Shown: positions 1,285-40,816, numbered from the stretch's first letter. The stretch: DNA of 40,816 nt from a virus (IMGVR_UViG_2563366884_000001:1-40816); one strand, 5' to 3'. A program made the numbers and translations. Notes: generated from the sequence alone by a model not told the origin.

Positions 1285-1330
1285 AGGTTGCTCCGGGCTA
1301 TGAAATAGAAAAATGAATCCGTTGAAGCCT

Positions 1331-1345
1331 GCTTTTTTATACTAA
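1331..1345. repeat. attL: attL core GCTTTTTTATACTAA, followed by lambda P' arm with Int arm-type sites (1346..~1420)
   Basis: Exact lambda att core; downstream sequence GTTGGCATTATAAAAAAGCATTGCTTATCAATTTGTTGCAACGAACAGGTCACTATCAGTCAAAATAAAATCATTATTTGATTTC matches the lambda P' arm as I recall it. Confidence 0.9.
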
Positions 1346-1418
1346 GTTGGCATTATAAAAAAGCATTGCTTATCAATTTGTTGCAACGAACAGGTCACTA
1401 TCAGTCAAAATAAAATCA

Positions 1419-4380: not shown

Positions 4381-4381
4381 C

Positions 4382-4807
4382 TCACTCTCCTTTGATGCGA
4401 ATGCCAGCGGCGCGTGGCACATTAACTTCCACGATGCGCACAGTTGGTTTGTACATCTCAATCGCTGTCAGCCAGTCAGCGCCAGTCATGCGCTTTTCTG
4501 CATCGCCATTAGTCCACTTAACCGGTACACCAATAGCCTTCATCGCGATTTCTATTTCCCCGGCAATGGCGCTTTTTCCGCAACCAGTAAAACCAGAAAC
4601 AACGACAAGAACTTCGCCTTTGGCTGGTTTTATTTCCCGTGCTTCCAGTTCTGCAATACGCTTTTTGTCTGCTTCCCGTTCATCCAGTAGTGCCAGCACA
4701 ATCGATGGTGTTACCAGCTCATGGAAAAGGTCCGCGTCAAATCCCCAGTCGTCATGCATTGCCTGATCTGCCGCTTCACGCAGTGCCTGGTAATTAATTT
4801 CGCTCAC
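4382..4807 (-). CDS. Ea22-like protein (141 aa) with Walker-A-like motif GFTGCGKS
   Basis: N-terminus MSEINYQALREAADQAMHDDWGFDADLFHEL and C-terminus ...GIRIKGE resemble lambda Ea22 as I recall it; GTG start with GGAGG SD. Confidence 0.5.
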   Translation of the reverse strand: MSEINYQALREAADQAMHDDWGFDADLFHELVTPSIVLALLDEREADKKRIAELEAREIKPAKGEVLVVVSGFTGCGKSAIAGEIEIAMKAIGVPVKWTNGDAEKRMTGADWLTAIEMYKPTVRIVEVNVPRAAGIRIKGE

Positions 4808-9845: not shown

Positions 9846-10496
9846 TTATGGAAGGTTTGCTAGTTTTGCATCGACAACTACGCCGATGATTTTGCAGTTT
9901 CCGTTGATCTCGATCATCGGATATTGTGGGTTAAGTGGTTTTAGAAACTTCCTGCCTGCATCAATAACTAACTTCTTGAAAGTTGCCTCGTTTTCTCCTT
10001 CGAGCTTTGCAACTACCAGTTTCCCGTTACGCGGCTCTACTTCAGGATCGACGAGTATTATCATTCCTTCAGGGATACTGAGACCGGCCGGAGCCGTCAT
10101 TGAGTCTCCCTTCACGTCCAACCAAAACGAATCTTCTGAACAGTCTACGGTTGTATCGTACCAGTTATCTATTGCACGCTTATGATATGGTTCTACAGCT
10201 TCCATCCAGCATCCTGCGCTCACCCAGCTAATCAGAGGGTATGACCCTCTTGGATCATGCCTACTGTGATAGGCAATGTTTGAAAGACTTTCCTCTCCTT
10301 TCATCAGATAGTCAGGGGAACACTTCAACGCATTAGCCAGGGCGAGAAGATTCTCTCCATTTGGCTCTGTCTCAGAGCGTTCCCACTGAGATATGGCAAC
10401 ATTAGACACGCCGACCATCTTTCCAAGTGCGGCCTGCCTGATCTTGAGTTCTTTTCTCCGAGCGCGAATGCGCTCTCCCATCAATTGAGTTTTCAT
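9846..10496 (-). CDS. c2: Prophage repressor, P22 C2-type (216 aa, LexA-like autopeptidase fold)
   Basis: MKTQLMGERIRARRKELKIRQAALGKMVGVSNVAISQWERSETEPNGENL... and C-terminus ...NGNCKIIGVVVDAKLANLP match P22 C2 along the full length as I recall it. Confidence 0.9.
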   Translation of the reverse strand: MKTQLMGERIRARRKELKIRQAALGKMVGVSNVAISQWERSETEPNGENLLALANALKCSPDYLMKGEESLSNIAYHSRHDPRGSYPLISWVSAGCWMEAVEPYHKRAIDNWYDTTVDCSEDSFWLDVKGDSMTAPAGLSIPEGMIILVDPEVEPRNGKLVVAKLEGENEATFKKLVIDAGRKFLKPLNPQYPMIEINGNCKIIGVVVDAKLANLP

Positions 10497-11186: not shown

Positions 11187-11459
11187 ATGCGAAACAAAGG
11201 CTTTAATCCACCTGATACACACAAAGAAGCTAAGCGTTTGCGCTTCCTTCGTTCCATTGATGAAAGAACTCAAATCTCTTTTGTGAAAGTTGCCAGAACT
11301 GAGCTTCTGAAGGCTGAGGCGAGGGCGTTGCTCCCGTCTCTACCAAAAGAGGAGGGATATACGTTCATTCCAAACGCATTTCTGGAAAAGCTGATCAAAG
11401 AAGACATATCCGTAAGTCAGTTTAACGATGTTCTTAAGGTCTTTCGTCAAGGCAGGTAG
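11187..11459 (+). CDS. Hypothetical protein (90 aa) between cII and the replication initiator
   Basis: GAGGT SD before ATG at 11187; no family recognised. Confidence 0.5.
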   Translation: MRNKGFNPPDTHKEAKRLRFLRSIDERTQISFVKVARTELLKAEARALLPSLPKEEGYTFIPNAFLEKLIKEDISVSQFNDVLKVFRQGR

Positions 11460-11461
11460 TG

Positions 11462-12409
11462 ATGAGCAATACAGCAAAAATCTACGATTTCAGCGCCGCA
11501 CACGAGCGCAGGAGCAACAGGATGGAGAACCAGAAAACTGGTTACATTCCGTTGTACCGGAGCATTCTGAAACAGTCATGGGCGAAAGATGTTTATCTTC
11601 GCACCCTGTGGGAAAACCTTCTCCTGAATGCCGCCAGAAAGCCATACAAAGCGAATTTCAAAGGTCATGAATGGCATCTGCAACCCGGTCAACTGGTTGT
11701 GACAGCAGCTGATTTAGGTCTTCAGTTATGCGACAGGCATGGCAAGCCGGCAAGCCGTGATCAGGTTGAGCGGATGCTTCAGGTTTTTGTGAAAGAGGGG
11801 ATGATCTCCATTGATGGAGAGAAGCAAAAAGGTCGTGTGATCACCATCACAAATTACCATGAATACGCTCAAAAAATGGACAATTCCCCCGCACATGAAG
11901 CCGCACAAACAACCGCACATGATGCCGCACATGATGAAGCCAGTAATGGCGCGGCTTTCAGCGTACATGCCGCACATGAAAGCGCACATGAAGCCGCACA
12001 AACAACCGCACATCATGAACAAGAAGGTATTAACAAGAATATAAATAATACCCCCCTACCCCCCAATGGGGGAGGCGATGGGCAGGTTAAACCTGAACGT
12101 CGCAAGGCAGAACGAATCGACTACGAATCCTTCCTGAACGCCTACAACACCGAAGTCGGTGACAGGCTTCCACACGCTGTTGCGGTCAACGAGAAACGCA
12201 AACGCCGCCTGAAGAAAATCATCCCGCAACTGAAAACGCCAAACGTGGACGGTTTCAGAGCGTATGTCAGGGCGTTTGTGCATCAGGCCAAGCCGTTTTA
12301 CTTCGGAGACAACGACACGGGCTGGACGGCAGATTTTGATTACCTGCTGAGGGAAGATTCGTTAACGGGAGTTCGGGAAGGGAAGTTTGCAGACAGGGGG
12401 ATTGCATGA
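11462..12409 (+). CDS. Replication initiation protein (O-like / P22 gene 18 analogue) with internal origin iterons
   Basis: Position directly upstream of the DnaB-like helicase; contains tandem iterons encoding [10 protein letters not shown]-type peptide repeats; stop overlaps helicase start. Confidence 0.6.
11884..12040. repeat. Putative origin: about six CCGCACATGA iterons followed by an AT-rich tract
   Basis: Repeated (C/G)CGCACATGA(A/T)G units, including two 27-nt copies of CATGAAGCCGCACAAACAACCGCACAT, then ACAAGAAGGTATTAACAAGAATATAAATAATA. Confidence 0.6.
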
Positions 12410-13854: not shown

Positions 13855-14061
13855 GTGGTTGAGTTGATTTTCTCTGCATTGAGGATTCTCGGTGCCATGT
13901 GGATGGTGGCGACGTTCATTGTTGTTGCCAGCAGTTTTGTCCGGTTGGTAGGCGAAGGTAAAGACCCGGTGGGTGTGCTTTTCGGTAGCATTTTCCTGTG
14001 GGTGATTATCGGTGTTATGCCTGTTGTCGTAGCAAAAGTGGCGTGGCGTTTTGTGAGTTGA
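13855..14061 (+). CDS. Small hydrophobic membrane protein (68 aa), GTG start
   Basis: GGGGAGAG SD upstream of GTG; two predicted TM helices. Confidence 0.45.
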   Translation: MVELIFSALRILGAMWMVATFIVVASSFVRLVGEGKDPVGVLFGSIFLWVIIGVMPVVVAKVAWRFVS

Positions 14062-16466: not shown

Positions 16467-16651
16467 ACGCCACAATTCAAACGATACCAGAGCTTCTTAT
16501 CCAGACACGAGGCAATCAGACCGAAGTGGCGAGGATGCTTTCCTGTGCAAGAGGAACAGTGCTCAAGTACAACCGAGACAGCAAAGGTGAGCGTCACGTA
16601 ATAGTTAACGGCGTCCTGATGGTCAGACAGGGCAAGAGGGGAAGACCATGA
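16463..16651 (+). CDS. ninH: NinH-like protein (62 aa)
   Basis: …TIPELLIQTRGNQTEVARMLSCARGTVLKY…IVNGVLMV resembles lambda NinH. Confidence 0.65.
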   Translation: MNATIQTIPELLIQTRGNQTEVARMLSCARGTVLKYNRDSKGERHVIVNGVLMVRQGKRGRP

Positions 16652-17271
16652 GACTCGAAAGCGTAGCTAAATTTCATTCGCCAAAAAGCCCGATGATGAG
16701 CGACTCACCACGGGCTACGGCTTCTGACTCTCTTTCCGGTACTGATGTGATGGCTGCTATGGGGATGGCACAATCACAGGCCGGATTTGGAATGGCTGCA
16801 TTCTGTGGTAAGCACGAACTCAGCCAGAACGACAAACAAAAGGCTATCAACTATCTGATGCAATTTGCACACAAGGTATCGGGGAAATACCGTGGTGTGG
16901 CAAAGCTCGAAGGAAATACTAAGGCAAAGGTACTGCAAGTTCTCGCAACATTCGCTTATGCGGATTATTGCCGTAGTGCCGCGACGCCGGGTGCAAGATG
17001 CAGAGATTGTCACGGTACAGGCCGTGCGGTTGATATAGCAAAAACAGAGCAGTGGGGGAGAGTTGTTGAGAAAGAATGCGGAAGATGCAAAGGTGTCGGC
17101 TATTCAAGGATGCCAGCAAGCGCCGCATATCGCGCTGTAACGATGCTAATCCCAAACCTTACTCAACCCACCTGGTCACGCACTGTTAAGCCGCTGTATG
17201 ACGCTCTGGTGGTGCAATGCCACAAGGAAGAGTCAATTGCAGACAATATCTTGAATGCGGTCACACGTTAG
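16648..17271 (+). CDS. Q: Late-gene antiterminator Q, lambda-type (207 aa)
   Basis: MRLESVAKFHSPKSPMMSDSPRATASDSLSGTDVMAAMGMAQSQAGFGMAAFCGK... matches lambda Q essentially throughout as I recall it. Confidence 0.9.
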   Translation: MRLESVAKFHSPKSPMMSDSPRATASDSLSGTDVMAAMGMAQSQAGFGMAAFCGKHELSQNDKQKAINYLMQFAHKVSGKYRGVAKLEGNTKAKVLQVLATFAYADYCRSAATPGARCRDCHGTGRAVDIAKTEQWGRVVEKECGRCKGVGYSRMPASAAYRAVTMLIPNLTQPTWSRTVKPLYDALVVQCHKEESIADNILNAVTR

Positions 17272-20390: not shown

Positions 20391-20816
20391 ATGGCGACTG
20401 AGAAAAAGAATGTCGGTCGCCCTTCGGATTACCTGCCGGAGGTGGCTGATGATATCTGTGCGCTGCTTGCCTCCGGGGAAAGTCTGGTTAAGGTTTGCAA
20501 GCGCCCCGGCATGCCAGCAAAGGCTACTGTATTTCGCTGGCTGTCAGAGCATGACGAATTTAGAGACAAGTACGCGAAGGCAACTGAGGCACGAGCTGAT
20601 TCTATTTTCGAAGAGATATTCGAAATTGCTGACACTGCGATTCCAGATGCTGCTGAGGTGGCAAAGGCAAGACTTCGCGTTGATACCCGCAAATGGGCGC
20701 TGGCCCGAATGAATCCCCGTAAGTATGGCGACAAGGTAACTAACGAGCTTGTCGGTAAGGACGGCGGCGCAATCCAGATTGAAACATCACCGATGAGCAC
20801 TCTATTCGGAAAATGA
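20391..20816 (+). CDS. Terminase small subunit (141 aa)
   Basis: Immediately upstream of and overlapping terL; N-terminal HTH-like region; typical size. Confidence 0.65.
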   Translation: MATEKKNVGRPSDYLPEVADDICALLASGESLVKVCKRPGMPAKATVFRWLSEHDEFRDKYAKATEARADSIFEEIFEIADTAIPDAAEVAKARLRVDTRKWALARMNPRKYGDKVTNELVGKDGGAIQIETSPMSTLFGK

Positions 20817-22225
20817 CCTCGATTAATCCTATCTTTGAACCGTTCATTGAGGCGCATCGCTACAAAGTCGCCAAAGGCGGTCGAGGTAGCGGTAAGTCAT
20901 GGGCAATTGCTAGGCTGCTTGTTGAAGCGGCGCGTCGGCAGCCTGTGCGCATACTTTGCGCTCGTGAGCTGCAAAACAGTATCAGCGATTCGGTAATTCG
21001 GTTGCTTGAAGACACCATAGAGCGGGAAGGGTATTCGGCTGAGTTTGAAATTCAGCGTTCAATGATTCGTCATCTAGGAACGAATGCTGAATTCATGTTC
21101 TACGGCATCAAAAACAACCCGACGAAGATTAAATCGCTCGAAGGTATTGATATCTGCTGGGTGGAAGAAGCGGAAGCGGTAACGAAGGAATCATGGGATA
21201 TCCTGATACCAACCATCCGCAAGCCGTTTTCCGAAATATGGGTGAGCTTTAACCCGAAGAACATACTCGACGATACCTATCAGCGATTCGTCGTAAATCC
21301 TCCCGATGATATTTGTCTGCTGACGGTGAACTACACCGACAACCCGCACTTTCCTGAAGTTCTCCGTCTGGAGATGGAAGAGTGCAAACGCAGAAATCCG
21401 ACACTGTATCGTCATATCTGGCTTGGTGAGCCAGTAAGCGCAAGTGATATGGCAATCATCAAACGTGAATGGCTTGAAGCCGCAACCGATGTGCACAAGA
21501 AACTCGGATGGAAAGCGAAAGGCGCTGTTGTTTCTGCACATGACCCGTCAGATACAGGGCCAGATGCTAAAGGTTACGCATCGCGTCACGGTTCGGTGGT
21601 TAAGCGCATTGCCGAAGGTCTGCTGATGGACATCAACGAGGGTGCTGACTGGGCTACTTCGCTGGCGATTGAAGACGGTGCTGACCATTACCTGTGGGAT
21701 GGTGATGGTGTTGGTGCCGGGCTACGCAGACAGACAACGGAAGCATTCTCCGGTAAGAAAATCACCGCCACGATGTTTAAGGGCAGCGAATCGCCATTCG
21801 ATGAAGATGCGCCTTATCAGGCCGGAGCATGGGCTGATGAAGTCGTACATGGCGACAACGTTCGCACTATTGGCGATGTATTCCGCAATAAGCGAGCGCA
21901 ATTCTATTACGCGCTGGCTGACAGGCTGTATCTGACATATCGGGCGGTTGTTCACGGTGAGTATGCAGACCCAGACGACATGCTGAGTTTCGACAAAGAA
22001 GCGATAGGCGAGAAGATGCTGGAGAAGCTGTTTGCAGAACTTACGCAGATTCAGCGCAAATTCAATAACAACGGGAAGCTGGAGCTTATGACTAAGGTCG
22101 AAATGAAGCAGAAGCTCGGTATTCCATCTCCTAACCTGGCTGATGCGCTGATGATGTGTATGCATTGCCCGGCATTGGTCCGCGAAGAAACAGAAATATA
22201 CGTTCCCTCATCCTCCGGTTGGTAA
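20813..22225 (+). CDS. Terminase large subunit (headful-type, 470 aa)
   Basis: Walker A KGGRGSGKS near the N-terminus, ATPase plus C-terminal nuclease domain organisation. Confidence 0.85.
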   Translation: MTSINPIFEPFIEAHRYKVAKGGRGSGKSWAIARLLVEAARRQPVRILCARELQNSISDSVIRLLEDTIEREGYSAEFEIQRSMIRHLGTNAEFMFYGIKNNPTKIKSLEGIDICWVEEAEAVTKESWDILIPTIRKPFSEIWVSFNPKNILDDTYQRFVVNPPDDICLLTVNYTDNPHFPEVLRLEMEECKRRNPTLYRHIWLGEPVSASDMAIIKREWLEAATDVHKKLGWKAKGAVVSAHDPSDTGPDAKGYASRHGSVVKRIAEGLLMDINEGADWATSLAIEDGADHYLWDGDGVGAGLRRQTTEAFSGKKITATMFKGSESPFDEDAPYQAGAWADEVVHGDNVRTIGDVFRNKRAQFYYALADRLYLTYRAVVHGEYADPDDMLSFDKEAIGEKMLEKLFAELTQIQRKFNNNGKLELMTKVEMKQKLGIPSPNLADALMMCMHCPALVREETEIYVPSSSGW

Positions 22226-30615: not shown

Positions 30616-31992
30616 TTGGCTACATGGCAACAGGCTGGTAATTCAGGCGCGCTTCTTGCCGGGTTAGGCGGCATGAACTCCAACGCTCCAAGAGCAAGTG
30701 ATGCAGACGCCACGCTTGCATACATTCGACAGAATAACGAGATGGAGCGTTCAGGACGTAATAACGTTGGCTTGCAGGCTTTACAGGGCATTTCATCTGT
30801 CATGGATATGTATAAGCAGATGGATCAGCAGAAGCGACAGCAAGAGTTTCAGCAGGCTTATGCTGATGCATATACATCTGGTGACCGCGATGCAATGCGA
30901 AAGCTGGCATCACAGTATCCTGAGCAGCTTGACGCTGTAAGAAACGGCATGAAATTTGTCGATGAAGACCAGCGTTCCACTGTCGGTACACTGGCAGCAA
31001 GTGCCAGACTCGCAGCTTCATCTCCAGAAGCCATGATGTCATGGTTGCAGAACAACTCATCTGAGCTTACTCGTGCCGGAGTAGACCCTCTGGATGTGGC
31101 GAAAATGTATCAGCAAAATCCACAAGGTTTCACAGAGTTTGTTGATCACCTTGGAATGGCTGCACTTGGTCCGATTGATTACTTCAATGTTCAGGACAAG
31201 ATAGCTGGTCGTGAGATTGACCGAGGCAGACTGGCAGAGACAATCCGCAGCAATCAGGCTGGCGAGGCGCTAACAGCGCGTGGTCAGAATATCACGATGC
31301 GCGGTCAGGATTTATCGATGCAGAGAGCATCAATGAAAGGGGCGGTTGGGAATAATGAGCGTACAGTTCAGTTAGCAGATGGCAGAACTGTAACGGTAGG
31401 CGGGAAGCTTCACGGCGCTGGGGCTAATGCGTTCTACGAAGGTATCGACAACGAGGGGAATATGGTTCGCGTTCCTGCTGGTTCTATTGCCGCTCCGGCT
31501 ACATCGGCAGCAAGCGCGCAGAATTACGCAATGAAGAAAGATCTTGATGCAATTTCTGGTGCATCAATTGACGATCTTGGCTTCATGACTGGCATTACAG
31601 GCTCTTCAGGTTCTCCTGCTCTTGGTGCAGATATTCGTAGCCGTGCATCTGGTGGTGATCAGAGGAAACTATACAACGCTGCACAGCGAATCCAAGGAAA
31701 GATGCAGAATCAGGGCATTGCAGCAGCCAGAGACATGGGGGCATCCGGTATCAACACCGTTGCAGAAGCAAAGATGTATTTTCAAGGTATGCCACAGGTT
31801 GATTTCTCAAGCCCTGAAGCACTGCAACAATCAATGCGCGACATTCAGCAATATACCGACAATTACAACCAGCAATATAACGTTAATGTCGGTAATGGCG
31901 GGAAGAAATCATCAAGGCAACAGCCAGCTACTCAGCAATCAGCAGGAGGTAGCTACACGTCAAAATCAGGCATTCAATTTACGGTGGAATGA
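30616..31992 (+). CDS. Ejection (DNA-transfer) protein, P22 gp20 analogue (TTG start)
   Basis: GGAGGT SD 5 nt upstream of TTG; size and position equivalent to P22 gene 20. Confidence 0.55.
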
Positions 31993-33830
31993 TGAAAGTA
32001 ACTGCAAACGGTAAGACATTTACCTTCCCTGATGGTACGAGCACGGAAGATATTGGCACCGCCATTGATGAGTATTTTGCTGGTCAGGCTGTTCAGCAAC
32101 AAACAGTTAATCAGGCCAATAATGCACCAACACGGGAAGAACCATCATTGATGCAACAAGCTGGCGATTGGCTCACTGGTGGTCAAAGTGCAGGGCAAAT
32201 TGCAGAACAGGCTGGTCGTGGTCTGGTAAACATACCATTTGACGTATTACAGGGCGGCGCAAGTCTGATTAATGCAATCAGTCAGGGGCTTGGTGGCCCC
32301 AAGGTTTTGGATGATGTTTATCGTCCAGTAGACAGACCGACAGACCCCTACGCTCAAGCTGGAGAAACAATTGGCGGGTATTTAGTTCCAGGAGTTGGAA
32401 CGGCAGGAAGCATGGCTATTGGATCACTGGCAGAGGCCGCAAATCAGAAAGGTGATTTCGCACAAAATGCAGCTAAAAATGCCGGAGTTAACCTTGCCGC
32501 TCAGGGTGTTCTTTCCGCAGCAGCAAAGGGAATAGGGCGTGGAATAACGGCTATAAAAGGTGATATTGCGCCAGAAGTGGCAAAGAAAATTGCCACATCA
32601 GAATCGATGGGCGTGACACCAATGACATCTGATGTTATCCCGCCGAAAAATGCTTTCACTCGCGGACTTACTCAAGATGCTGAGGGGGCTTTGCTCGGGA
32701 CAGGCTCAAAGCGAGCGGAGCAATATGCAACGCGTAGTAAGCTGGTAAGCAATTATTTTGACCGTTTTGGTGAGTACAACCCTGATGATGTGGTGAGATC
32801 TCTGACCACCACGTTAAGGGGACGGAAGGATGCCGCTGGCGCTGTTATCAATGACGTCACCAATAAAATGGGTAATGCCGCAGTTGATACCACAAATACC
32901 ATGAATGCTCTGAATACAGCGATCGCAAGACAGGAACGGCTTGGGACTTCTGCCAATCAAAACCTGCTTACATCCTTGCGTAACCTACGTGAAGAATTAG
33001 CAAACCCTGCAACTGATTTGGATGTTACGTTTGATCTCTTGCGCCAGCACAGAACAGCATTTAGATCTAATGTTCAGGGAGATGCCATGGTCTTCCCCAA
33101 CCAGGCAAAAGCAGCTACCAATATGGTAGAGAATGCAATGTCAAAAGACCTTCGTAACGCAGTTGCCAAAAACCTCGGTGCTTCAGACGCAGCAAAATAC
33201 CTTAAAGCAAATTCCGATTATGCAAACGTTTATAATAAGGTGCTTAATAAAAACATTGCTAACAAGCTCAACAAGGCAAGCAGTGAAGCCAGTCCTGAAC
33301 TTATAAATACCGTTGTATTAAGCAGAAAACCATCTGACGTGAAACGAATCTGGAGCGCACTTGATGATAAAGGGAAAGATGCTATGCGTGCAGCTTACGT
33401 CAGCAAAATAGCGGAAAAGGCCGGTGACTCTCCAGCCAAGTTCATCACTGAAGTTAATAAGCTGAAATCTCAGTCAGGCGGTGAAATTTACAACACTATT
33501 TTTTCTGGAAAGCACATGAAAGAACTTGATGCTCTTCATGAAGTTCTACAGCAAGCAGCAAGATCAGACACCGCAAATGTAGTAACTCAGACGGGGCAAT
33601 CGCAAGCCAACAGGATAAGGACGATTGGCGCAACTACGACTCTTGGCGTATCAATGGGGCTTGAGGCTGGTTTCGGTGCAATGATGCGCTTGTATGAATC
33701 CAAAGCAGCAAGGAATGCGCTCTTACGTCTGGCAAACACTAAAGCTGGAACGCCAGCTTATGAAAGAGCGCTAAATCAGGCGGCTACTGCCGTGCGCCCG
33801 CTCTTAGTTAACGAAGCTACCCGGCAGTAG
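31989..33830 (+). CDS. Ejection (DNA-transfer) protein, P22 gp16 analogue (613 aa)
   Basis: Size and position equivalent to P22 gene 16; last gene of the co-directional virion block before the accessory island. Confidence 0.6.
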
Positions 33831-33852: not shown

Positions 33853-34335
33853 TTATTTTATAGTTTTTATGAATTCTTTATTAAATCCCTTCGCTTCTCC
33901 GGGGTATCTTCCGAAGACAATTTTTATAAAAACAGAAAAAATAAAGATAGCAACGCTTAACAACAATTGCAGTATCATTGGAACCCAAAGAACTACAGGC
34001 TCTATATTCATGAAACCAAATATTCTTCCGGCGATCATGGCGAAGTACCACACTGTTATCAGCAAACTTAGTGGCATATGAATTACTGATATTACCAATC
34101 CAAGAGCATCAGTAATTCTGTTTTCAAATTTTTCAGGGGAAAACTTTTCTTTAAGGTAATTCAGTGCGCAGGCCTCATTCTCTGGATTTTCAGCATTTTT
34201 CCCTATAGCAATAGAAATCTCAGATATCCTTGATTCAATTCTTTTACGTTTAATAAAACTAGAAAAAAAGAACCACGCAATCTGCAACCCTATCCCCAGA
34301 AATAGAGTTGCGGCAACTAGCACAGCGTAACTCAT
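33853..34335 (-). CDS. Multi-pass membrane protein (160 aa), low-GC moron at the sieA-equivalent locus
   Basis: TAAGGAGGT SD before Met at 34335; three or four hydrophobic helices; markedly AT-rich codon usage compared with flanking phage genes. Confidence 0.6.
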
Positions 34336-34377
34336 AGAATCAGACACACCAACCTCCTTAGTTTTGCGCAGGATACC

Positions 34378-34743
34378 ATGAAAAAAGTTAACATTGGAAA
34401 CGTACCAAAGATGCTCGTTCCGCTCTTTGAGAGCGGTACAATTGTGTTTTGTAGAGACTTTCCAGAATGGCAACGCCTGCATCAAAAACTTGGCGTTGAC
34501 GTGCATGACTCGGACGCCAACGGAGCGTCTCATACAATGAGTAGCGAGAATGGTGTTTTGCATGTGATAGGCGTGTTCAATGGCAAACTATCTACTATTG
34601 CCCATGAGTGCGCTCACATGGCATTCGATATCTGCTCAAGGGTAGGTGTTGATGTTGAACCAGGAAGAGCCAACGAGACTTACTGCTACTTAATGAGCAG
34701 GCTTGTTGAGTTCTGCGAGCGACATATCAAAAAGCCGGAGTGA
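34378..34743 (+). CDS. Small HExxH-motif protein (121 aa), putative minimal zinc metallopeptidase
   Basis: [11 protein letters not shown] contains an HExxH motif; divergent from the membrane-protein gene (42 bp apart); stop codon sits inside a hairpin. Confidence 0.5.
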
Positions 34744-34749
34744 CCCGGC
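34733..34749. terminator. Putative bidirectional terminator hairpin between convergent genes
   Basis: GCCGG-AGTGAC-CCGGC flanked by AAAAA upstream and T-rich sequence downstream; contains the stop codon of the HExxH gene. Confidence 0.4.
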
Positions 34750-34756
34750 TTGATTA

Positions 34757-34936
34757 TTACTTTTTGCTGTCTGGAGTTCGCTTATCCAATACCCAGCCAT
34801 GACCTGGCTTTGTTGTTGGTGGAAGCCTTTCGTTGTCCTTGACGGTTGCAAAATTGTCTTTCTTACCGCCGCGTGGGCCAACTTCTTGGTATATTCCGCC
34901 GTTTTTTCCTGTGTTTTCACCTGGTTTTTTCGCCAT
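34757..34936 (-). CDS. YjzC-like small protein (59 aa)
   Basis: KPGENTGKNGGIYQEVGPRGG…LPPTTKPGHGW fits the YjzC-like pattern (KPGE…G.Y.E.G…P.T…W); GAGGT SD; own sigma70-like promoter (TTGACT…AATATT) at ~34950..35010. Confidence 0.5.
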   Translation of the reverse strand: MAKKPGENTGKNGGIYQEVGPRGGKKDNFATVKDNERLPPTTKPGHGWVLDKRTPDSKK

Positions 34937-35026
34937 GATATACCTCAACATACACCCGTTATTGGGCGATTAAATATTGATCTCATTTTATAAGTAGTCA
35001 ATATGGCCCAGGTAAATGCAAAAATT

Positions 35027-35050
35027 AACCCACCTTCAGGTGGGTTTTTT
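35027..35050 (+). terminator. Terminator hairpin overlapping the 3' end of mnt
   Basis: AACCCACC-TTCA-GGTGGGTT perfect stem followed by TTTTTT on the plus strand; the mnt stop codon lies in the loop. Confidence 0.55.
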
Positions 35051-35287
35051 GTACAAATCCTTCAGCGTATCAAACACCATCTTCTTAACAAGCTCTGACT
35101 GCTCATCAGCGATGCGTTCCGCATCGTCTCGATAGCCTGAAATTTTGGATGGCTTTGATACAGCATCAGTCACTATCTGAACTAATTCTGAATTAAGAGA
35201 GCGGCCATTGGATTTGGCTCGCTGTTTTAGTTTTTCCTTTAATTCGTAAGGTAGCCGCAGATTAAATTGCGGGTCATCTCTTCCCAT
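35036..35287 (-). CDS. mnt: Mnt repressor, P22-type ribbon-helix-helix protein (83 aa)
   Basis: MGRDDPQFNLRLPYELKEKLKQRAKSNGRSLNSELVQIVTDAVSKPS…GYRDDAERIADEQSELVKKMVFDTLKDLYKK matches P22 Mnt as I recall it. Confidence 0.85.
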   Translation of the reverse strand: MGRDDPQFNLRLPYELKEKLKQRAKSNGRSLNSELVQIVTDAVSKPSKISGYRDDAERIADEQSELVKKMVFDTLKDLYKKPT

Positions 35288-35350
35288 TCTTGATGCCTCG
35301 CTTTTGTGAGTGGATCGGCATCTTATTATCTGCTGGTTGCATCCTCAATA

Positions 35351-35365
35351 AGACCACAGTGGTCT
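35351..35365. promoter_or_regulatory. Mnt operator-like perfect palindrome AGACCACAGTGGTCT
   Basis: 15-bp perfect inverted repeat in the mnt–tailspike intergenic region, similar to the P22 Omnt core (GTCCAC.GTGGAC). Confidence 0.55.
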
Positions 35366-35433
35366 CTTTGTTTGATTAATAATGCATCACTGTGGCAATG
35401 CTGCGGCGATTCCTTGTATCTGGAGCAAATTAA

Positions 35434-38379
35434 ATGACAGACATTACAGCCAATGTTGTAGTGAGTATGCCTTCGCAACTCTTCACTATGGCGCGTTCTT
35501 TTAAAGCCGTAGCCAATGGCAAAATTTATATCGGTAAAATTGACACTGACCCGGTAAATCCTGAAAACCAGATTCAGGTTTATGTAGAGAACGAAGACGG
35601 TTCTCACATTCCTGTTTCGCAACCAATAATCATTAACGCTGCTGGATATCCGGTATATAACGGACAGATTGCCAAATTCGTTACCGTGCAAGGCCATTCT
35701 ATGGCTGTTTATGATGCGTATGGTGCGCAGCAGTTCTATTTTCCTAATGTGCTGAAGTATGATCCTGATCAGTTACGGCAGCAATTAGAAGACCCAGATG
35801 GAGCGAATAAATACCCAAAACTTCAGATAGCAAGATGGAGAGACAGTTATGATGTAAGAGGTTGGGGGGCTATTGGTGATGGTGTTCATGATGACACATC
35901 AGCTCTATCAGAATTACTTTCTGTTGCAACAGGTGGTGAAAAGATAGATGGGCGAGGGCTTACTTTTAAAGTATCAACTCTTCCAGATGTCAGTCGATTT
36001 AAAAATGCTCGTTTTTTATTTGAGAGAATACCGGGTCAGCCTCTTTTTTATGCTTCTGAAGATTTTATCCAGGGAGAGTTATTTAAAATTACAGATACAC
36101 CGTGGTACAACGCCTGGACGCAGGATAAAACGTTTGTATATGACAATGTCATCTATGCGCCTTTTATGGCTGGAGACCGCCATGGTGTAAATAACCTCCA
36201 TGTTGCATGGGTTCGCTCAGGAGATGACGGGAAGACCTGGACAACGCCGGAATGGCTTACAGATTTACATGAAAACTATCCCACAGTTAACTATCACTGC
36301 ATGAGTATGGGGGTTGTCAGAAATCGCCTTTTTGCTGTAATTGAGACGCGGACCGTGAGCGGAAATAAACTGCAGGTTGCAGAGTTGTGGGATCGCCCAA
36401 TGAGTCGCAGCCTTCGCGTTTATGGTGGTATAACGAAAGCAGCAAATCAGCAAGTCGCTTATATTCGCATTACTGATCACGGATTATTTGCTGGTGATTT
36501 TGTCAACTTCTCAAACTCTGGTGTTACAGGTGTTACCGGGAATATGACGGTGACTACTGTTATTGATAAAAATACTTTTACAGTTACGACGCAAAATACC
36601 CAGGATGTGGATCAGAATAACGAGGGTAGATACTGGAGTTTTGGTACATCATTTCACTCGTCACCATGGAGAAAAACCAGTCTTGGAACTATTCCTTCTT
36701 TTGTTGACGGAAGCACTCCTGTTACTGAGATTCACAGTTTTGCGACGATTAGCGATAACAGTTTTGCTGTTGGCTACCATAATGGTGATATTGATCCACG
36801 CGAGCTTGGGATACTCTATTTCTCTGATGCTTTCGGTTCTCCTGGTAGCTTTGTTCGCAGACGCATACCTGCAGAATATGAGGCGAATGCATCTGAGCCA
36901 TGTGTAAAATATTATGATGGCATTCTGTATCTGACGACCAGGGGGACATTAAGTACTCAACCCGGTAGTTCATTGCACAGAAGCTCTGATTTAGGTACAT
37001 CATGGAATTCTCTTCGCTTCCCAAATAATGTTCATCACTCAAACCTTCCTTTTGCCAAAGTTGGCGATGAGCTGATTATTTTTGGCAGTGAGCGCGCATT
37101 TGGTGAGTGGGAAGGAGGAGAACCTGATAACCGTTATGCAGGAAATTATCCAAGAACATTTATGACCAGAGTTAACGTCAATGAGTGGAGTCTGGATAAT
37201 GTAGAGTGGGTTAATGTTACTGATCAGATTTATCAGGGCGGAATAGTTAACTCTGCGGTTGGTGTTGGTTCAGTTTGTATCAAAGACAACTGGCTGTACT
37301 ACATTTTCGGTGGGGAAGACTTTCTAAACCCATGGAGCATAGGGGATAACAACAGAAAATATCCTTATGTTCACGATGGTCACCCGGCTGATTTGTATTG
37401 TTTCAGGGTGAAAATTAAACAGGAAGAATTTGTTTCAAGGGATTTTGTCTACGGAGCCACTCCTAACAGAACGCTTCCTACTTTTATGTCGACGTCAGGC
37501 GTGAGGACGGTTCCTGTACCCGTTGATTTCACAGATGATGTTGCCGTCCAGTCACTGACTGTCCATGCAGGTACATCAGGACAAGTTCGCGCGGAAGTCA
37601 AACTTGAGGGTAATTACGCCATTATTGCGAAGAAAGTACCGTCTGATGATGTTACCGCTCAGAGATTAATCGTTAGCGGAGGTGAAACAACGTCTTCAGC
37701 AGATGGTGCAATGATAACGTTGCATGGTTCCGGAAGCAGTACTCCACGTCGCGCGGTATATAACGCACTCGAACATCTTTTTGAGAACGGAGATGTTAAA
37801 CCTTATCTTGATAATGTAAATGCTCTTGGTGGTCCGGGAAACAGGTTCTCGACAGTTTATCTTGGCTCCAATCCTGTGATTACCAGTGACGGAACATTAA
37901 AGACAGAGCCGGTCTCTCCTGACGAAGCATTGCTGGATGCCTGGGGTGACGTCAGGTATATCGCTTATAAATGGCTGAACGCTGTCGCTATAAAGGGGGA
38001 AGAAGGGGCGAGGATACATCATGGTGTAATCGCGCAGCAACTTCGTGATGTTCTTATTTCTCACGGACTCATGGAAGAAGAAAGCACAACATGCCGCTAT
38101 GCCTTTCTTTGCTATGACGATTATCCCGCAGTATATGATGACGTCATTACTGGCCAAAGGGAAATGCCGCTGACTGATAATGACGGGAGCATCATTGTTG
38201 ATGAGGATGATAATCCAGTGATGGTAATGGAAGACATCATTGAGCGCGTTGAAATAACGCCAGCAGGATCTAGATGGGGGGTCAGACCTGATCTCTTATT
38301 CTATATCGAGGCGGCATGGCAGCGCAGAGAAATAGAAAGAATAAAAGCTAGGTTAGACTTAATAGAAGGGAAGCACTAA
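35434..38379 (+). CDS. Tailspike: P22-type N-terminal head-binding domain fused to Asp-box sialidase-like beta-propeller and C-terminal intramolecular-chaperone-like domain (981 aa); putative K1 endosialidase
   Basis: N-terminus [47 protein letters not shown]… matches the P22 tailspike head-binding domain; Asp boxes SGDDGKTW and SSDLGTSW; long C-terminal extension. Confidence 0.75.
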
Positions 38380-39100: not shown

Positions 39101-39577
39101 TTAACTAAACATCGCAGTAATCGAGGCACTCGCCAGAGAGTGAAAATGAACGTTAAACCCGACCATCGCGCCGCTGGCACCTTCATCGACATCAATACGT
39201 TCTACATCCAGCGCGTGAACGGTAAAAATGTAGCGATGGGTTTCGCCTTTCGGCGGCGCTGCGCCATCGTACCCGGTTTTACCAAAGTCGGTACGCGTCT
39301 GCAAAACGCCGTCTGGCATAGCTACCAGACCAGAGCCAAACCCTTGCGGTAATACGCGGGTATCAGCGGGTAAATTAACAACTACCCAGTGCCACCAGCC
39401 GGAGCCGGTTGGCGCATCCGGGTCATAGCAGGTGACAACAAAACTTTTCGTTCCCGCAGGAACATCATCCCACGCCAGATGCGGTGAAATATTATCGCCA
39501 TCGTAACCCATGCCGTTAAAGACATGACGATGCGGCAGCTTATCGCCATCGCGCAGATCGTTACTGATGAGTTTCAT
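39101..39577 (-). CDS. ybhB: YbhB, PEBP-family protein (host gene flanking lambda attB)
   Basis: 158-aa ORF matching E. coli YbhB as I recall it; position on the far side of the att core from ybhC. Confidence 0.85.
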   Translation of the reverse strand: MKLISNDLRDGDKLPHRHVFNGMGYDGDNISPHLAWDDVPAGTKSFVVTCYDPDAPTGSGWWHWVVVNLPADTRVLPQGFGSGLVAMPDGVLQTRTDFGKTGYDGAAPPKGETHRYIFTVHALDVERIDVDEGASGAMVGFNVHFHSLASASITAMFS

Positions 39578-39685: not shown

Positions 39686-40816
39686 ATGAAACGCGCATAT
39701 AAATACCGGTTTTACCCGACAACTGAGCAGGCTGAGCTTTTAGCTCAGACGTTTGGCTGTGTGCGCTTCGTCTACAATTCCATCCTTCGTTGGCGTACCG
39801 ATGCGTACTACGAGCGAAAAGAAAAGATCGGTTATCTACAGGCCAACGCTCGCCTTACGGCGCTCAAAAAAGAGCCTGAATACATATGGCTGAATGATGT
39901 TTCCTGCGTTCCCCTCCAGCAGTCGTTGCGCCACCAACAAGCCGCCTTTGCTAACTTCTTTGCCGGACGAGCTGCATATCCGGCTTTCAAAAGCAAACGG
40001 CACAAACAGGTGGCTGAGTTCACTGCCAGCGCGTTTAAACACCGTGACGGCGAGTTGTATATAGCAAAGAGCAAGTCGCCGCTGGATGTTCGCTGGAGTC
40101 GAGAATTACCATCTGCGCCGTCAACCGTTACCATTTCCAGAGATAGCGCTGGCAGGTACTTTGTTTCCTGCCTGTGTGAGTTTGAACCTGTATCAATGCC
40201 TGTTACCGCTAAAACGGTCGGCATTGATGTGGGCTTAAAAGATTTATTCGTCACCGATACCGGATTCAAAACCGACAATCCCCGCCACACCGCTAAATAT
40301 GCGAAGCGATTAACGCTGCTACAGCGACGTTTAAGCAGGAAGCAAAAAGGCTCAAGAAACCGAATTAAAGCCCGCTTAAAGGTCGCCCGACTCCACGCGA
40401 AAATCGCCGATTGCCGGATGGACAATCTGCACAAGTTGTCCCGCAAACTGATTAACGAAAACCAAGTTGTTTGCGTCGAATCCCTCAAGGTGAAAAACAT
40501 GATCCGCAACCCGAAGCTGTCTAAAGCAATAGCTGACGCAGGCTGGAGCGAACTTGTTCGCCAGCTCCAGTACAAAGGCAAATGGGCCGGGCGGTCAGTG
40601 GTCGCCATTGACCAGTATTTACCGTCCTCAAAATGCTGTAGTTGCTGCGGTTTCACCATGCAAAAAATGCCTCTTAATGTTCGTAAATGGCACTGCCCTG
40701 AATGCGGCGCAGACCATGATCGCGACATTAACGCGGCACGTAATATTAAAGCTGCCGGGCTGGCAGTGTTAGCCCACGGAGAGCCTGTAAACCCTGAATC
40801 GCAGCACGCGGCTTAG
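39686..40816 (+). CDS. tnpB: TnpB (IS200/IS605 OrfB-family RNA-guided nuclease-like protein), 376 aa, no tnpA partner in window
   Basis: Typical OrfB N-terminus (MKRAYKYRFYPT…), RuvC-like acidic residues and C-terminal zinc finger (CxxC…CxxC); stop codon is the last three bases of the window. Confidence 0.8.
   Translation: MKRAYKYRFYPTTEQAELLAQTFGCVRFVYNSILRWRTDAYYERKEKIGYLQANARLTALKKEPEYIWLNDVSCVPLQQSLRHQQAAFANFFAGRAAYPAFKSKRHKQVAEFTASAFKHRDGELYIAKSKSPLDVRWSRELPSAPSTVTISRDSAGRYFVSCLCEFEPVSMPVTAKTVGIDVGLKDLFVTDTGFKTDNPRHTAKYAKRLTLLQRRLSRKQKGSRNRIKARLKVARLHAKIADCRMDNLHKLSRKLINENQVVCVESLKVKNMIRNPKLSKAIADAGWSELVRQLQYKGKWAGRSVVAIDQYLPSSKCCSCCGFTMQKMPLNVRKWHCPECGADHDRDINAARNIKAAGLAVLAHGEPVNPESQHAA

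What the first reader, a model, noticed from the sequence alone, without database searches (positions are those of the whole stretch)
34378..34743. Minimal HExxH protein whose stop codon lies inside a bidirectional terminator hairpin, convergent 13 bp from the YjzC-like gene
The 121-aa protein carries a single HExxH motif (HECAH) in a predicted helix, the signature of zincin metallopeptidases, but is far smaller than typical ImmA/IrrE or SprT proteins and has no adjacent HTH partner. Its stop codon sits in the loop of GCCGG-AGTGAC-CCGGC, and the convergent YjzC-like gene ends 13 bp away. This tight packing suggests expression control by transcriptional interference.
Basis: partly seen in the sequence, partly recalled or inferred. 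Interest (0 to 1): 0.55.

Follow-up and report, generated by a model that had tools for sequence, protein, structure and literature searches.

The report
P22 hkcC: minimal phage zinc protease
The 121-residue ORF is hkcC, a long-annotated gene of unknown function in phage P22 and HK620. Its family conserves everything expected of a very small zinc protease, and the hairpin over its stop codon is the already-annotated terminator of the neighbouring antisense gene.

Summary
ORF 34378-34743 encodes 121 aa with HECAH at residues 76-80. Its TGA lies in the loop of hairpin 34732-34751, and the convergent 59-aa gene ends 13 nt away.

The window is a complete P22-like (CUS-3-type) prophage. The ORF is hkcC, 99% identical to P22 and HK620, and listed in the literature as "unknown". 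HK620's record already calls the hairpin "bidirectional terminator tORF59A", and P22's record annotates a minus-strand terminator there.

What I add:
- **Family:** hkcC belongs to a large phage family (PHROG 1365), with 546 clusters at 50% identity, nearly all 105-140 aa.
- **Motif:** across 128 diverse members the only invariant residues are H76, E77, H80 and E100. This is HExxH-x19-E, the thermolysin spacing.
- **Membership:** it matches no Pfam family and is not ImmA/IrrE, SprT or a minigluzincin.
- **Orientation:** it always runs with the surrounding lytic operon, often next to terminase genes, so late expression is inferred.
- **Hairpin:** it tracks the convergent gene, not hkcC.
- **Pairing:** hkcC and orf59a each occur alone, so they are not an obligate pair.

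The substrate and biological role remain unknown. The finding is of modest interest.

The parts
34378..34743 (+). hkcC coding sequence (121 aa), a member of PHROG 1365 and a putative minimal gluzincin-type zinc metallopeptidase
   Evidence: ORF. It is 99.2% identical to P22 and HK620 hkcC and matches phrog_1365 at E 1.7e-39. All 6 nt differences from P22 fall at codon position 3. Two AF2 models have pLDDT 89.1 and 93.7.
34603..34617 (+). Codons for H76-E77-C78-A79-H80 (HExxH): two inferred zinc ligands plus the catalytic Glu
   Evidence: H76, E77 and H80 are invariant in 128 diverse members and in 123 of 123 sequences. They lie in predicted helix 71-88.
34672..34677 (+). Codons for N99-E100: inferred third zinc ligand, at the first turn of the 'glutamate helix'
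   Evidence: E100 is invariant (122/123) and N99 is 75% conserved. It aligns with thermolysin N165-E166 in the phmmer alignment. Helix 100-115/116 comes.
34378..34408 (-). PsieA promoter (leftward), overlapping the first 31 nt of hkcC
   Evidence: Annotated in P22 BK000583 at 13861-13891. The sequence is identical in the window. PMC10883804 places PsieA within 85 bp upstream of sieA.
33853..34347 (-). sieA (superinfection exclusion), divergent from hkcC; 164 aa from GTG 34347, or 160 aa from ATG 34335
   Evidence: Matches phrog_7745 SieA-like at E 2.8e-106. P22 annotation. Sequence.
34729..34751 (-). Intrinsic terminator of the leftward orf59a (or mnt-orf59a) transcript. Stem is AAGCCGG/CCGGCTT with its T-run on the minus strand. 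It overlaps hkcC codons 118-121 and the stop codon.
   Evidence: Annotated in P22 and HK620. Conserved as a structure with four different stem sequences in loci with a convergent gene.
34757..34936 (-). orf59a (59 aa, YjzC-family), convergent with hkcC
   Evidence: Matches phrog_3202 at E 7.3e-31 and Pfam YjzC at E 0.0013. P22 annotates it as orf59a. Homologues are named YjzC family.
34973..35001 (-). Sigma-70-like promoter candidate for orf59a (TTGACT-17-AATATT)
   Evidence: Consensus scan only, 9 of 12 matches. Not verified.
35027..35046 (.). Second bidirectional hairpin, overlapping the mnt stop codon, with strong T-runs on both strands
   Evidence: HK620 annotates the homologous site as tMNT.
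35036..35287 (-). mnt repressor (Arc/Mnt ribbon-helix-helix)
   Evidence: Pfam Arc at 2.8e-22 and Repressor_Mnt at 2.2e-18.

Best explanation
The ORF is hkcC, an accessory gene of P22-like phages. It encodes a soluble, single-domain zinc metallopeptidase of about 14 kDa, of the gluzincin type.

**Inferred catalytic site.** H76 and H80 sit on the active-site helix. E100 sits at the start of the following helix. Together they would bind one zinc ion, with E77 as the general base. The beta-hairpin 49-66, with invariant G49, would form the substrate-docking edge.

**Inferred expression.** No plus-strand promoter candidate was found upstream, and hkcC is the only rightward gene between gene 16 and the tailspike gene. 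It would therefore be transcribed by Q(gp23)-antiterminated late-operon polymerase, which reads through the 'ant moron' during lytic growth. Its leftward neighbours (mnt, orf59a, sieA) are prophage-expressed.

**The hairpin.** The hairpin over the hkcC stop codon is the intrinsic terminator of the leftward orf59a (or mnt-orf59a) transcript. It stops that transcript before it runs antisense across hkcC. The C-terminal residues Lys-Lys-Pro-Glu are simply what the A-run plus stem encode.

**Shown here:** gene identity, family size, invariant HExxH-x19-E, a confident predicted zincin-like topology, co-orientation with lytic operons, and a hairpin that tracks the convergent gene.

**Inferred:** zinc binding, peptidase activity and late expression.

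**Unknown:** the substrate. My working guess is a host or rival-phage protein cleaved during lytic growth, for host takeover or counter-defence.
For: **Identity.** The locus is the gene 16 / sieA / hkcC / orf59a / mnt region of P22 at 96-97% nt identity.

**A real, constrained gene.**
- All 6 differences from P22 are at codon position 3.
- There are 546 clusters (50% identity) at E<=1e-3, and nearly all of the 150 listed are 105-140 aa.
- All 128 aligned members hit phrog_1365.

**Catalytic signature.**
- The only invariant columns in 128 members are H76, E77, H80 and E100. G49, G90, Y104 and L105 are at least 90% conserved.
- The spacing and the NE motif match thermolysin in the phmmer alignment.
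- Most of the weak PDB sequence hits are HExxH metalloproteases: 6 of 9 and 11 of 12. The rest are unrelated proteins.

**Fold.**
- Two AF2 models (pLDDT 89.1 and 93.7, pTM 0.83 and 0.87) share the topology b-b-a-b-b-a(HExxH)-a(E100).
- BFVD gives 26 phage proteins at E<1e-3, with TM up to 0.83. A few of them are named SprT-like or Metalloprotease.

**Orientation.**
- hkcC is co-oriented with flanking lytic genes in every distinct context. These are the P22 ant moron, siphovirus tail operons, a lysis-terminase gap, sites next to TerS/TerL, and one early operon.
- The window has a Q antiterminator, and all late genes are on the plus strand.
- No plus-strand promoter was found upstream.
- Late transcription is known to traverse this moron into gene 9 (PMC2629481).

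**Hairpin.**
Against: - No experimental evidence exists for zinc binding, proteolysis or late expression.
- I could not read model coordinates, so the H76/H80/E100 geometry was not measured.
- There is no significant sequence match to any Pfam, NCBIfam or PDB family.
- The promoter scan is a crude consensus search, so a weak promoter inside sieA cannot be excluded.
- No protease is discussed in the main text of a preprint that catalogues 268 phage anti-defence proteins (zero occurrences of 'protease', 'peptidase', 'metallo', 'proteoly' or 'zincin'). The counter-defence guess therefore has a low prior.
Confidence: 0.65

Rival explanations
1. HkcC and Orf59a form a functional two-gene system, such as a protease toxin with an antitoxin or inhibitor, or a defence pair. 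The convergent overlap would couple their expression by transcriptional interference.
For: The convergent pair travels together into unrelated phages. The stop-to-stop gap is 13-14 nt in the window, L003, L004 and L006, and 5 nt in Morganella. Other hosts of the pair include Xenorhabdus, Proteus and a Pasteurellaceae early region. In the 80 best IMG/VR loci, 69 keep the pair.
Against: - Each partner occurs alone. Eleven P22-like loci keep hkcC and the hairpin but replace orf59a with a 74-aa membrane ORF.
- All homologues at about 40% identity or less lack orf59a.
- orf59a homologues in S. bongori prophages and environmental contigs have no HkcC neighbour.
- There is no PADLOC match.
- The two genes face opposite transcription programmes.
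Confidence: 0.1
2. HkcC is an ImmA/IrrE-like anti-repressor protease. It would belong functionally to the immI region and cleave a repressor (Mnt, C2 or a rival prophage's repressor) to switch immunity.
For: - It sits in the 'ant moron' beside mnt.
- ImmA/IrrE proteases are HExxH...E zincins.
- This window has mnt but no arc or ant.
Against: - None of the 128 members matches Peptidase_M78.
- No Xre-type HTH gene is adjacent in any context.
- Most family members lie in tail operons or next to terminase genes, with no repressor nearby.
- hkcC persists in HK620, where immI has decayed to remnants.
Confidence: 0.08
3. HkcC is a prophage-expressed exclusion or defence factor that works with SieA, for example by degrading incoming ejection proteins.
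For: It is immediately divergent from sieA, and PsieA lies inside its first 31 nt. Its neighbours are lysogenic-conversion genes.
Against: [quoted passage not shown] A single-copy insert carrying only sieA and PsieA protected cells from P22 lysis.
- hkcC runs opposite to all prophage-expressed genes here, and no promoter candidate was found.
- It is retained in loci where sieA is replaced.
- Fold relatives occur in phages I take to be strictly lytic, from my own knowledge.
Confidence: 0.07
4. The protein is a zincin-fold pseudoenzyme or a SprT-like DNA-protein-crosslink protease, rather than a protease with a specific protein target. Alternatively, the ORF is kept open only because it overlaps regulatory DNA.
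For: Eighteen of 128 members give sub-threshold SprT-like Pfam hits (best 1e-4). Some BFVD neighbours are named SprT-like. The ORF overlaps both PsieA and a terminator.
Against: - In the one case whose alignment I could see (the family consensus), the SprT match covers only 17 residues around HExxH.
- There is no zinc ribbon or DNA-binding extension.
- All four catalytic residues are invariant, which argues against a pseudoenzyme.
- A family of 546 clusters in many contexts that lack those regulatory elements shows the protein itself is selected.
Confidence: 0.1

Closest known systems
hkcC of phages HK620 and P22 (PHROG 1365)
   Same: It is the same gene: 99.2% amino-acid identity and the same position between sieA (hkcB in HK620) and orf59a. 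All family members hit phrog_1365.
   Different: Nothing differs structurally. In the window the downstream immI part (arc, ant) is absent and the tailspike is an endosialidase. The literature and PHROG list the gene as 'unknown'.
Thermolysin-type gluzincins (MEROPS M4 and relatives)
   Same: The HExxH-x19-E spacing is the same, with Asn before the Glu ligand. Active-site helix is followed by a glutamate helix. phmmer aligns both motifs.
   Different: HkcC has 121 aa against about 316. It lacks the C-terminal domain and the His231/Tyr157-type residues. E-values are only 0.09-1.6, so this is not a demonstrable homologue.
Minigluzincins (proabylysin, projannalysin; Lopez-Pelegrin et al. 2013, as cited in PMC4559962)
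   Same: Both are stand-alone zincin catalytic domains. From my own knowledge minigluzincins are about 100-110 aa, close to HkcC's 121. Their sheet / backing helix / active-site helix / third-ligand helix topology is also from my own knowledge, not from a tool result.
ImmA/IrrE (Peptidase M78, COG2856), including the CBASS protease CapP
   Different: There is no PF06114 match in 128 members and no partner HTH repressor. HkcC is smaller, and the Glu spacing differs (IrrE about +27 after the second His, from my own knowledge).
SprT-like / Wss1 / Spartan metalloproteases
   Same: HExxH sits in a small zincin-like domain. There are sub-threshold PF10263 hits in 18 of 128 members.
   Different: In the family consensus, the match is restricted to 17 residues around the motif, at 14.9 bits against a cut-off of 25.6. 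From my own knowledge the third ligand in SprT/Spartan is His. There is no zinc ribbon or DNA-binding region.
Intrinsic terminator tORF59A (HK620), annotated as the 'mnt' terminator in P22
   Same: The sequence and position are identical (AAAAAGCCGGAGTGACCCGGCTT).
   Different: None. This feature is already annotated.

Membership tests
Gluzincin-type zincin metallopeptidases | HExxH motif on an alpha-helix (two His zinc ligands plus a catalytic Glu) | tested here: met
   HECAH is at residues 76-80 in helix 71-88. H76, E77 and H80 are invariant in 128 members.
Gluzincin-type zincin metallopeptidases | Third zinc ligand is a Glu on the next helix, downstream of HExxH | tested here: met
   E100 is invariant, lies 19 residues after H80, and opens helix 100-116. 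It aligns with thermolysin E166. Coordination geometry was not measured.
Gluzincin-type zincin metallopeptidases | Zincin fold: mixed beta-sheet plus backing helix N-terminal to the active-site helix, with structural similarity to solved zincins | tested here: inconclusive
Gluzincin-type zincin metallopeptidases | Binds zinc and hydrolyses peptide bonds | not testable with these tools
   Needs purified protein, metal analysis and activity assays.
Minigluzincins | Third zinc ligand is a histidine; sequence or structure similarity to proabylysin or projannalysin | tested here: not met
ImmA/IrrE (Peptidase M78) | Match to PF06114 or COG2856 | tested here: not met
   No such Pfam hit for the query or for any of the 128 members at E<=0.1.
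ImmA/IrrE (Peptidase M78) | Adjacent Xre-type HTH repressor partner | tested here: not met
   Neighbours are SieA, Orf59a and Mnt (RHH) in the window. In other loci they are tail, terminase or lysis genes.
SprT-like (PF10263) | Domain-wide match above Pfam's gathering score | tested here: not met
   The query has no hit. The family consensus scores 14.9 bits against a cut-off of 25.6, over residues 74-90 only. Eighteen of 128 members give sub-threshold hits.
PHROG 1365 | Significant full-length match to the profile | tested here: met
   E 1.7e-39 over residues 1-121 of the query. All 128 members match.
Rho-independent (intrinsic) terminator | GC-rich stem-loop followed directly by a T-run on the transcribed strand | tested here: met
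   On the minus strand the sequence is AAGCCGG-GTCACT-CCGGCTT followed by TTTGATATGT, so the T-run is CTTTTTG counting the two stem T's. On the plus strand the tail is GATTATTACT, which is weak. The structure is conserved with four stem variants. It is annotated in P22 and HK620. In vivo termination was not tested.
Obligate two-gene system (hkcC + orf59a) | Partners co-occur wherever either is found | tested here: not met
   hkcC occurs alone in 19 of 98 loci, including 11 P22-like loci. orf59a occurs alone in L108-L113.
Known anti-phage defence components (PADLOC) | Match to a defence-system protein model | tested here: not met
   The query has no hit. Only 3 stray single-member hits appear among the 128 members.

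The most novel reading that the evidence does not exclude
HkcC-family proteins (PHROG 1365 and its fold relatives in temperate and lytic phages) would be late-expressed minimal zinc proteases. They would disarm the host or a competing element by cleaving a specific immune or regulatory protein. That would be a proteolytic class of phage counter-defence, which is not discussed in the main text of the preprint describing a catalogue of 268 anti-defence proteins. One Citrobacter prophage places a family member two genes after a Tad2-like anti-Thoeris gene.
Probability: 0.2. Interest if true: 0.75.

Novelty: new member of a known kind. Interest (0 to 1): 0.38.

Why it matters
hkcC has sat unannotated in the model phages P22 and HK620 since 2001. 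The same DNA is present in 209 of 5,426 complete E. coli genomes, and the family spans at least 546 sequence clusters across many phage types.

Assigning it a concrete biochemistry turns an ORFan into a testable enzyme. The proposal is a roughly 120-residue gluzincin with ligands H76, H80 and E100 and catalytic E77. Single point mutations in P22, a very tractable system, would test it.

If the substrate proves to be a host defence or regulatory protein, that would reveal a new way for phages to manipulate cells. If not, the family remains one of the smallest predicted Glu-liganded zincin scaffolds and is useful for protease structure work.

The hairpin and gene-packing part of the finding is ordinary and already annotated.

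Tried and rejected
**Searches that found nothing**
- Pfam, NCBIfam and PADLOC on the query gave no meaningful hit. Lantibiotic hits at E 0.03-0.14 are noise from the Cys-rich HECAH stretch.
- PDB sequence searches used the single sequence, an 18-sequence profile, a 128-sequence profile and the family consensus. They gave only E >= 0.09 or nothing.
- Foldseek against the PDB gave nothing below E 0.1.
- The afdb50 fold library was unavailable.
I used the 18-sequence alignment instead.
- Ten longer family members (155-283 aa) had no Pfam domain in their extensions, so no domain-fusion clue emerged.
- Literature searches for hkcC and orf59a found only 'unknown function' listings. The SieA paper, the phage L genome paper and the P22 deletion paper do not address hkcC.

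**Ideas rejected**
- A structural or regulatory zinc site built from the conserved cysteines. C25, C78 and C86 are conserved only in the enterobacterial clade; only C103 (81%) is broadly kept.
- A virion-borne, injected protein. This was considered because the genes lie in morphogenetic operons. I set it aside because, from my own knowledge, the well-characterised P22 virion proteins do not include HkcC. It was not tested here.

**Not possible**
- I could not read the model coordinates, so ligand distances were not measured.

Full report
**1. What is in the window**

The 40.8-kb window is a complete P22-like prophage.
- It has a lambda-type integrase (1419-2489), a C2-like repressor (9846-10496) and a Q-type antiterminator (16648-17271).
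- The late operon lies entirely on the plus strand. It runs through lysis genes, terminase (20813-22225), ejection-protein genes 20 and 16 (30616-33830) and an endosialidase tailspike (35434-38379).
- The 1.6 kb around the finding is 96-97% identical to the gene 16 / sieA / orf59a / mnt region of Salmonella phage P22 and relatives.

The local gene order is:
- gene 16 (+)
- sieA (-, 33853-34347; phrog SieA-like, E 2.8e-106)
- the target ORF (+, 34378-34743)
- orf59a (-, 34757-34936)
- mnt (-, 35036-35287; Pfam Arc and Repressor_Mnt)
- tailspike (+)

Unlike P22, the window has no arc or ant.

**2.

- The ORF is 121 aa, with one HExxH (HECAH, residues 76-80, nt 34603-34617).
- Its TGA (34741-34743) lies in the loop of AAGCCGG/CCGGCTT (34732-34751).
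- The convergent stop is at 34757, 13 nt away.
- The hairpin folds better than shuffles, with z -2.9 on the minus strand and -2.3 on the plus strand.

**3. Identity of the gene and prior knowledge**

- The ORF is hkcC, 99.2% identical to the HK620 and P22 proteins.
- HK620's GenBank record lists it as 'hkcC: unknown'.
- The epsilon34 genome paper calls hkcC and 59a 'two genes of unknown function' in the P22 'ant moron' (PMC2629481).
- PHROG 1365, which it matches at E 1.7e-39, has no assigned function.
- I found no paper that assigns hkcC a function.
- The hairpin is already annotated. HK620 calls it 'bidirectional terminator; tORF59A'. P22 (BK000583) annotates it as a minus-strand terminator.
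- P22's annotated PsieA promoter occupies exactly the first 31 nt of hkcC on the opposite strand, and that sequence is identical in the window. This agrees with PMC10883804, which places PsieA within 85 bp upstream of sieA.

**4. It is a real, selected protein**

- All six nucleotide differences between the window and P22 hkcC fall at third codon positions. Five are silent.
- A word-indexed search found 32 clusters at 43-100% identity.
- An exhaustive profile search found 546 cluster representatives at E<=1e-3. Nearly all of the 150 listed are 105-140 aa.

**5. The catalytic signature**

- In an alignment of 128 members (23-78% identical to the query), the only invariant columns are H76, E77, H80 and E100. 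G49, G90, Y104 and L105 are at least 90% conserved (per-column counts).
- E100 lies 19 residues after H80 and is usually preceded by Asn. This is the HExxH-x19-(N)E arrangement of thermolysin. phmmer aligns both motifs with thermolysin and Bacillus neutral protease, though only at E 0.09-0.7.
- The cysteines that stand out in the enterobacterial clade (C25, C78, C86) are not conserved family-wide. Only C103 is, at 81%.

**6. Fold**

- AlphaFold2 gives confident models. With 18 sequences, pLDDT is 89.1 and pTM 0.83. With 128 sequences, pLDDT is 93.7 and pTM 0.87.
- Both models share one topology:
  - strands 11-13 and 21-25
  - helix 28-37
  - beta-hairpin 49-56 / 59-66
  - helix 71-88, carrying HExxH
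  - helix 100-116, starting at E100
- This is the order expected for a zincin catalytic domain: sheet, backing helix, active-site helix, glutamate helix.
- Foldseek against the PDB found nothing.
- Against predicted viral structures there are 26 hits at E<1e-3, with TM up to 0.83. They come from Pseudomonas, Ralstonia, Erwinia, Achromobacter, Eggerthella and crAss-like phages. Almost all are 'uncharacterized'; a few are named SprT-like, Metalloprotease or IrrE.

**7. Not a member of the named small-zincin families**

- There is no Pfam or NCBIfam hit for the query.
- Eighteen of 128 members give sub-threshold SprT-like hits. For the family consensus the match is 17 residues around the motif, at 14.9 bits against a cut-off of 25.6.
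- There is no Peptidase_M78 hit and no HTH partner gene in any context.
- Minigluzincins use a third histidine (PMC6925264), whereas this family uses Glu.
- The family is best described as a new, unnamed family of minimal gluzincins.

**8. Genomic context across relatives**

(a) The hkcC / hairpin / convergent orf59a cassette is found in several unrelated settings.
- It lies in siphovirus prophages of Rosenbergiella and Klebsiella oxytoca and in a metagenomic phage, between the tail-assembly chaperone and the tape-measure gene. The stop-to-stop gap there is 13-14 nt, as in the window.
- It also occurs in Xenorhabdus and Proteus (context not examined), in the early region of a Pasteurellaceae prophage, and in Morganella P22-like prophages with a 5-nt gap.

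(b) The pairing is not obligatory.
- Eleven P22-like loci keep hkcC and the hairpin but have a 74-aa membrane ORF in place of orf59a. They also lack a full-length sieA.
- HK620 has hkcB in place of sieA.
- orf59a homologues occur alone in S. bongori prophages and environmental contigs.

(c) More distant members (about 25-40% identity) lie in late operons.
- Some lie between the lysis genes and the terminase: Kluyvera, Citrobacter, Mixta and an E. coli 180-aa variant.
- Others lie next to TerS/TerL in four further contigs.
- The 38-40% paralogue found in epsilon34 (gp70), ST64T (orf-129), phage L (Orf129) and ST104 (orf47) follows the lysis genes in epsilon34, upstream of Dec.

(d) In every distinct context the gene is co-oriented with the flanking lytic operon.

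(e) Neighbour observations.
- One Citrobacter prophage has Tad2-like, then DUF2560, then HkcC-like, then TerS.
- One Kluyvera prophage has an HkcC-like gene followed 4 bp later by a PF18894 'putative phage metallopeptidase'.

**9. The hairpin belongs to the convergent gene**

- Read on the minus strand, the hairpin is a canonical intrinsic terminator: stem, then CTTTTTG. The plus-strand tail is weak (GATTATTACT).
- In the eight distinct loci where orf59a converges on hkcC, a hairpin with a minus-strand T-run is always present, with four different stem sequences:
  - AAGCCGG/CCGGCTT
  - AAACCGGCGC/GCGTCGGTTT
  - AAGCCGAC/GTCGGCTT
  - AGTCAGCC/GGCTGGCT
- L010, where a different convergent gene replaces orf59a, keeps the window's hairpin unchanged.
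- Family members without a convergent gene have no such hairpin.
- The hkcC stop lies in the loop in five of the eight orf59a loci, and in or at the end of the 3' arm in the other three. 'Stop in the loop' is therefore incidental.
- The conserved C-terminal KKPE/KKPA in this clade is what the A-run plus stem encode.
- mnt shows the same design. It ends KKPT-TGA, with its stop in the loop of hairpin 35027-35046.

**10. Most likely mechanism**

Shown:
- gene identity
- a large family with an invariant HExxH-x19-E
- a confident zincin-like predicted topology
- co-orientation with lytic operons
- a terminator that serves the leftward transcript

Inferred:
- HkcC binds one zinc through H76, H80 and E100, and hydrolyses peptide bonds with E77 as the general base.
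- No plus-strand promoter candidate lies upstream, and hkcC is the only rightward gene between gene 16 and the tailspike. It is therefore made when Q-antiterminated late transcription crosses the ant moron, a read-through described for P22 in PMC2629481.
- In the lysogen the leftward genes mnt, orf59a and sieA are expressed. The hairpin ends the orf59a transcript before it runs antisense over hkcC.

Unknown: the substrate. Patchy distribution, location in accessory hot spots and presence in phages I take to be lytic together suggest a dispensable host-takeover or counter-defence role. This is only a guess.

No protease is discussed in the main text of a preprint cataloguing 268 anti-defence proteins, and the family matches no PADLOC model.

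**11. Rivals**

- **Obligate HkcC-Orf59a system:** contradicted by independent occurrence of each gene.
- **ImmA-like anti-repressor role:** contradicted by the lack of an M78 match or HTH partner, and by the non-regulatory contexts.
- **Prophage-expressed exclusion factor working with SieA:** contradicted by orientation, by retention of hkcC where sieA is replaced, and by SieA alone being necessary and sufficient (PMC10883804).
- **SprT-like or pseudoenzyme reading:** not excluded, but the match is limited to the motif and all catalytic residues are invariant.

**12. Verdict**

The zincin interpretation is supported and sharpened: the third ligand is E100 and the spacing is that of thermolysin. 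The terminator and interference interpretation reduces to an already-annotated terminator of the neighbouring gene.

The novelty is a new, uncharacterised family inside a well-known enzyme superfamily, in a gene that was already catalogued. I rate the interest as modest (0.38).

Noticed in passing
window 35027-35046 and 35036-35287: mnt also ends inside a bidirectional terminator hairpin. Its TGA lies in the loop of AACCCACC/GGTGGGTT, and its C-terminus KKPT* mirrors HkcC's KKPE*. In both genes the A-run plus stem encode Lys-Lys-Pro. This hairpin has strong T-runs on both strands.
   Followed up: partly
window 35288-35433 (between mnt and the tailspike gene): The immI region is truncated. mnt is followed directly by the tailspike gene, with no arc, ant or sar. 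What Mnt represses here is unclear; it could be a Pant remnant reading into the tailspike gene.
   Followed up: no
window 35434-38379: The tailspike is a P22-type head-binding domain fused to a full endosialidase (End_beta_propel E 3e-233) with a Peptidase_S74 chaperone domain. This is a CUS-3-like, K1-capsule-specific phage.
   Followed up: partly
window 1-2489 and 39101-39577: The prophage carries a lambda-type integrase. It is flanked by a pectinesterase-like lipoprotein gene and a PEBP-family gene, which look like E. coli ybhC and ybhB, the lambda attB neighbourhood. The gene names are from my own knowledge and were not verified.
   Followed up: no
window 39686-40816: A TnpB/IS605 OrfB-type ORF (HTH_OrfB_IS605, OrfB_IS605 and Cas12f1-like TNB domains) runs off the right end of the window.
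   Followed up: no
L092 3291-4878 (Citrobacter prophage): An accessory cluster between lysis and terminase genes reads Tad2-like (PF11195, anti-Thoeris), then DUF2560, then an HkcC-family gene, then gp3-type small terminase.
   Followed up: partly
L091 4001-5014 (Kluyvera prophage): An HkcC-family gene is followed 4 bp later by a 212-aa PF18894 'putative phage metallopeptidase'. That places two putative metallopeptidases in tandem, upstream of a DUF2280 gene (probably the small terminase, from my own knowledge).
   Followed up: no
Phage records GQ422450, GQ422451, NC_014900 and others; EU570103 42220-42609: Several P22-like phages have two matching places in their record, possibly a second family copy (not examined). 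Others, such as epsilon34, phage L, ST64T and ST104, carry only a 38-40% paralogue (Orf129 / gp70). In epsilon34 this paralogue lies after the lysis genes, upstream of Dec.
   Followed up: partly
L010, L049, L066, L087 at about 4366-4604: A mosaic breakpoint falls exactly at the last codons of the convergent gene. hkcC, the hairpin and TTACTTTTT are kept, then a 74-aa membrane ORF with no Pfam match replaces orf59a.
   Followed up: partly
window 33853-34563 (minus strand): The 236-aa extended 'sieA' ORF used in some GenBank records overlaps hkcC by 186 nt. The 164-aa GTG start (34347), 5 nt after AAGGAGG, fits the P22 BK000583 annotation and the published PsieA position.
   Followed up: partly
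P0030 (Logan contig); compare window 11459-12409: This protein joins the N-terminus of the replication-protein ORF to the C-terminal half of HkcC. It is probably an assembly chimera.
   Followed up: no
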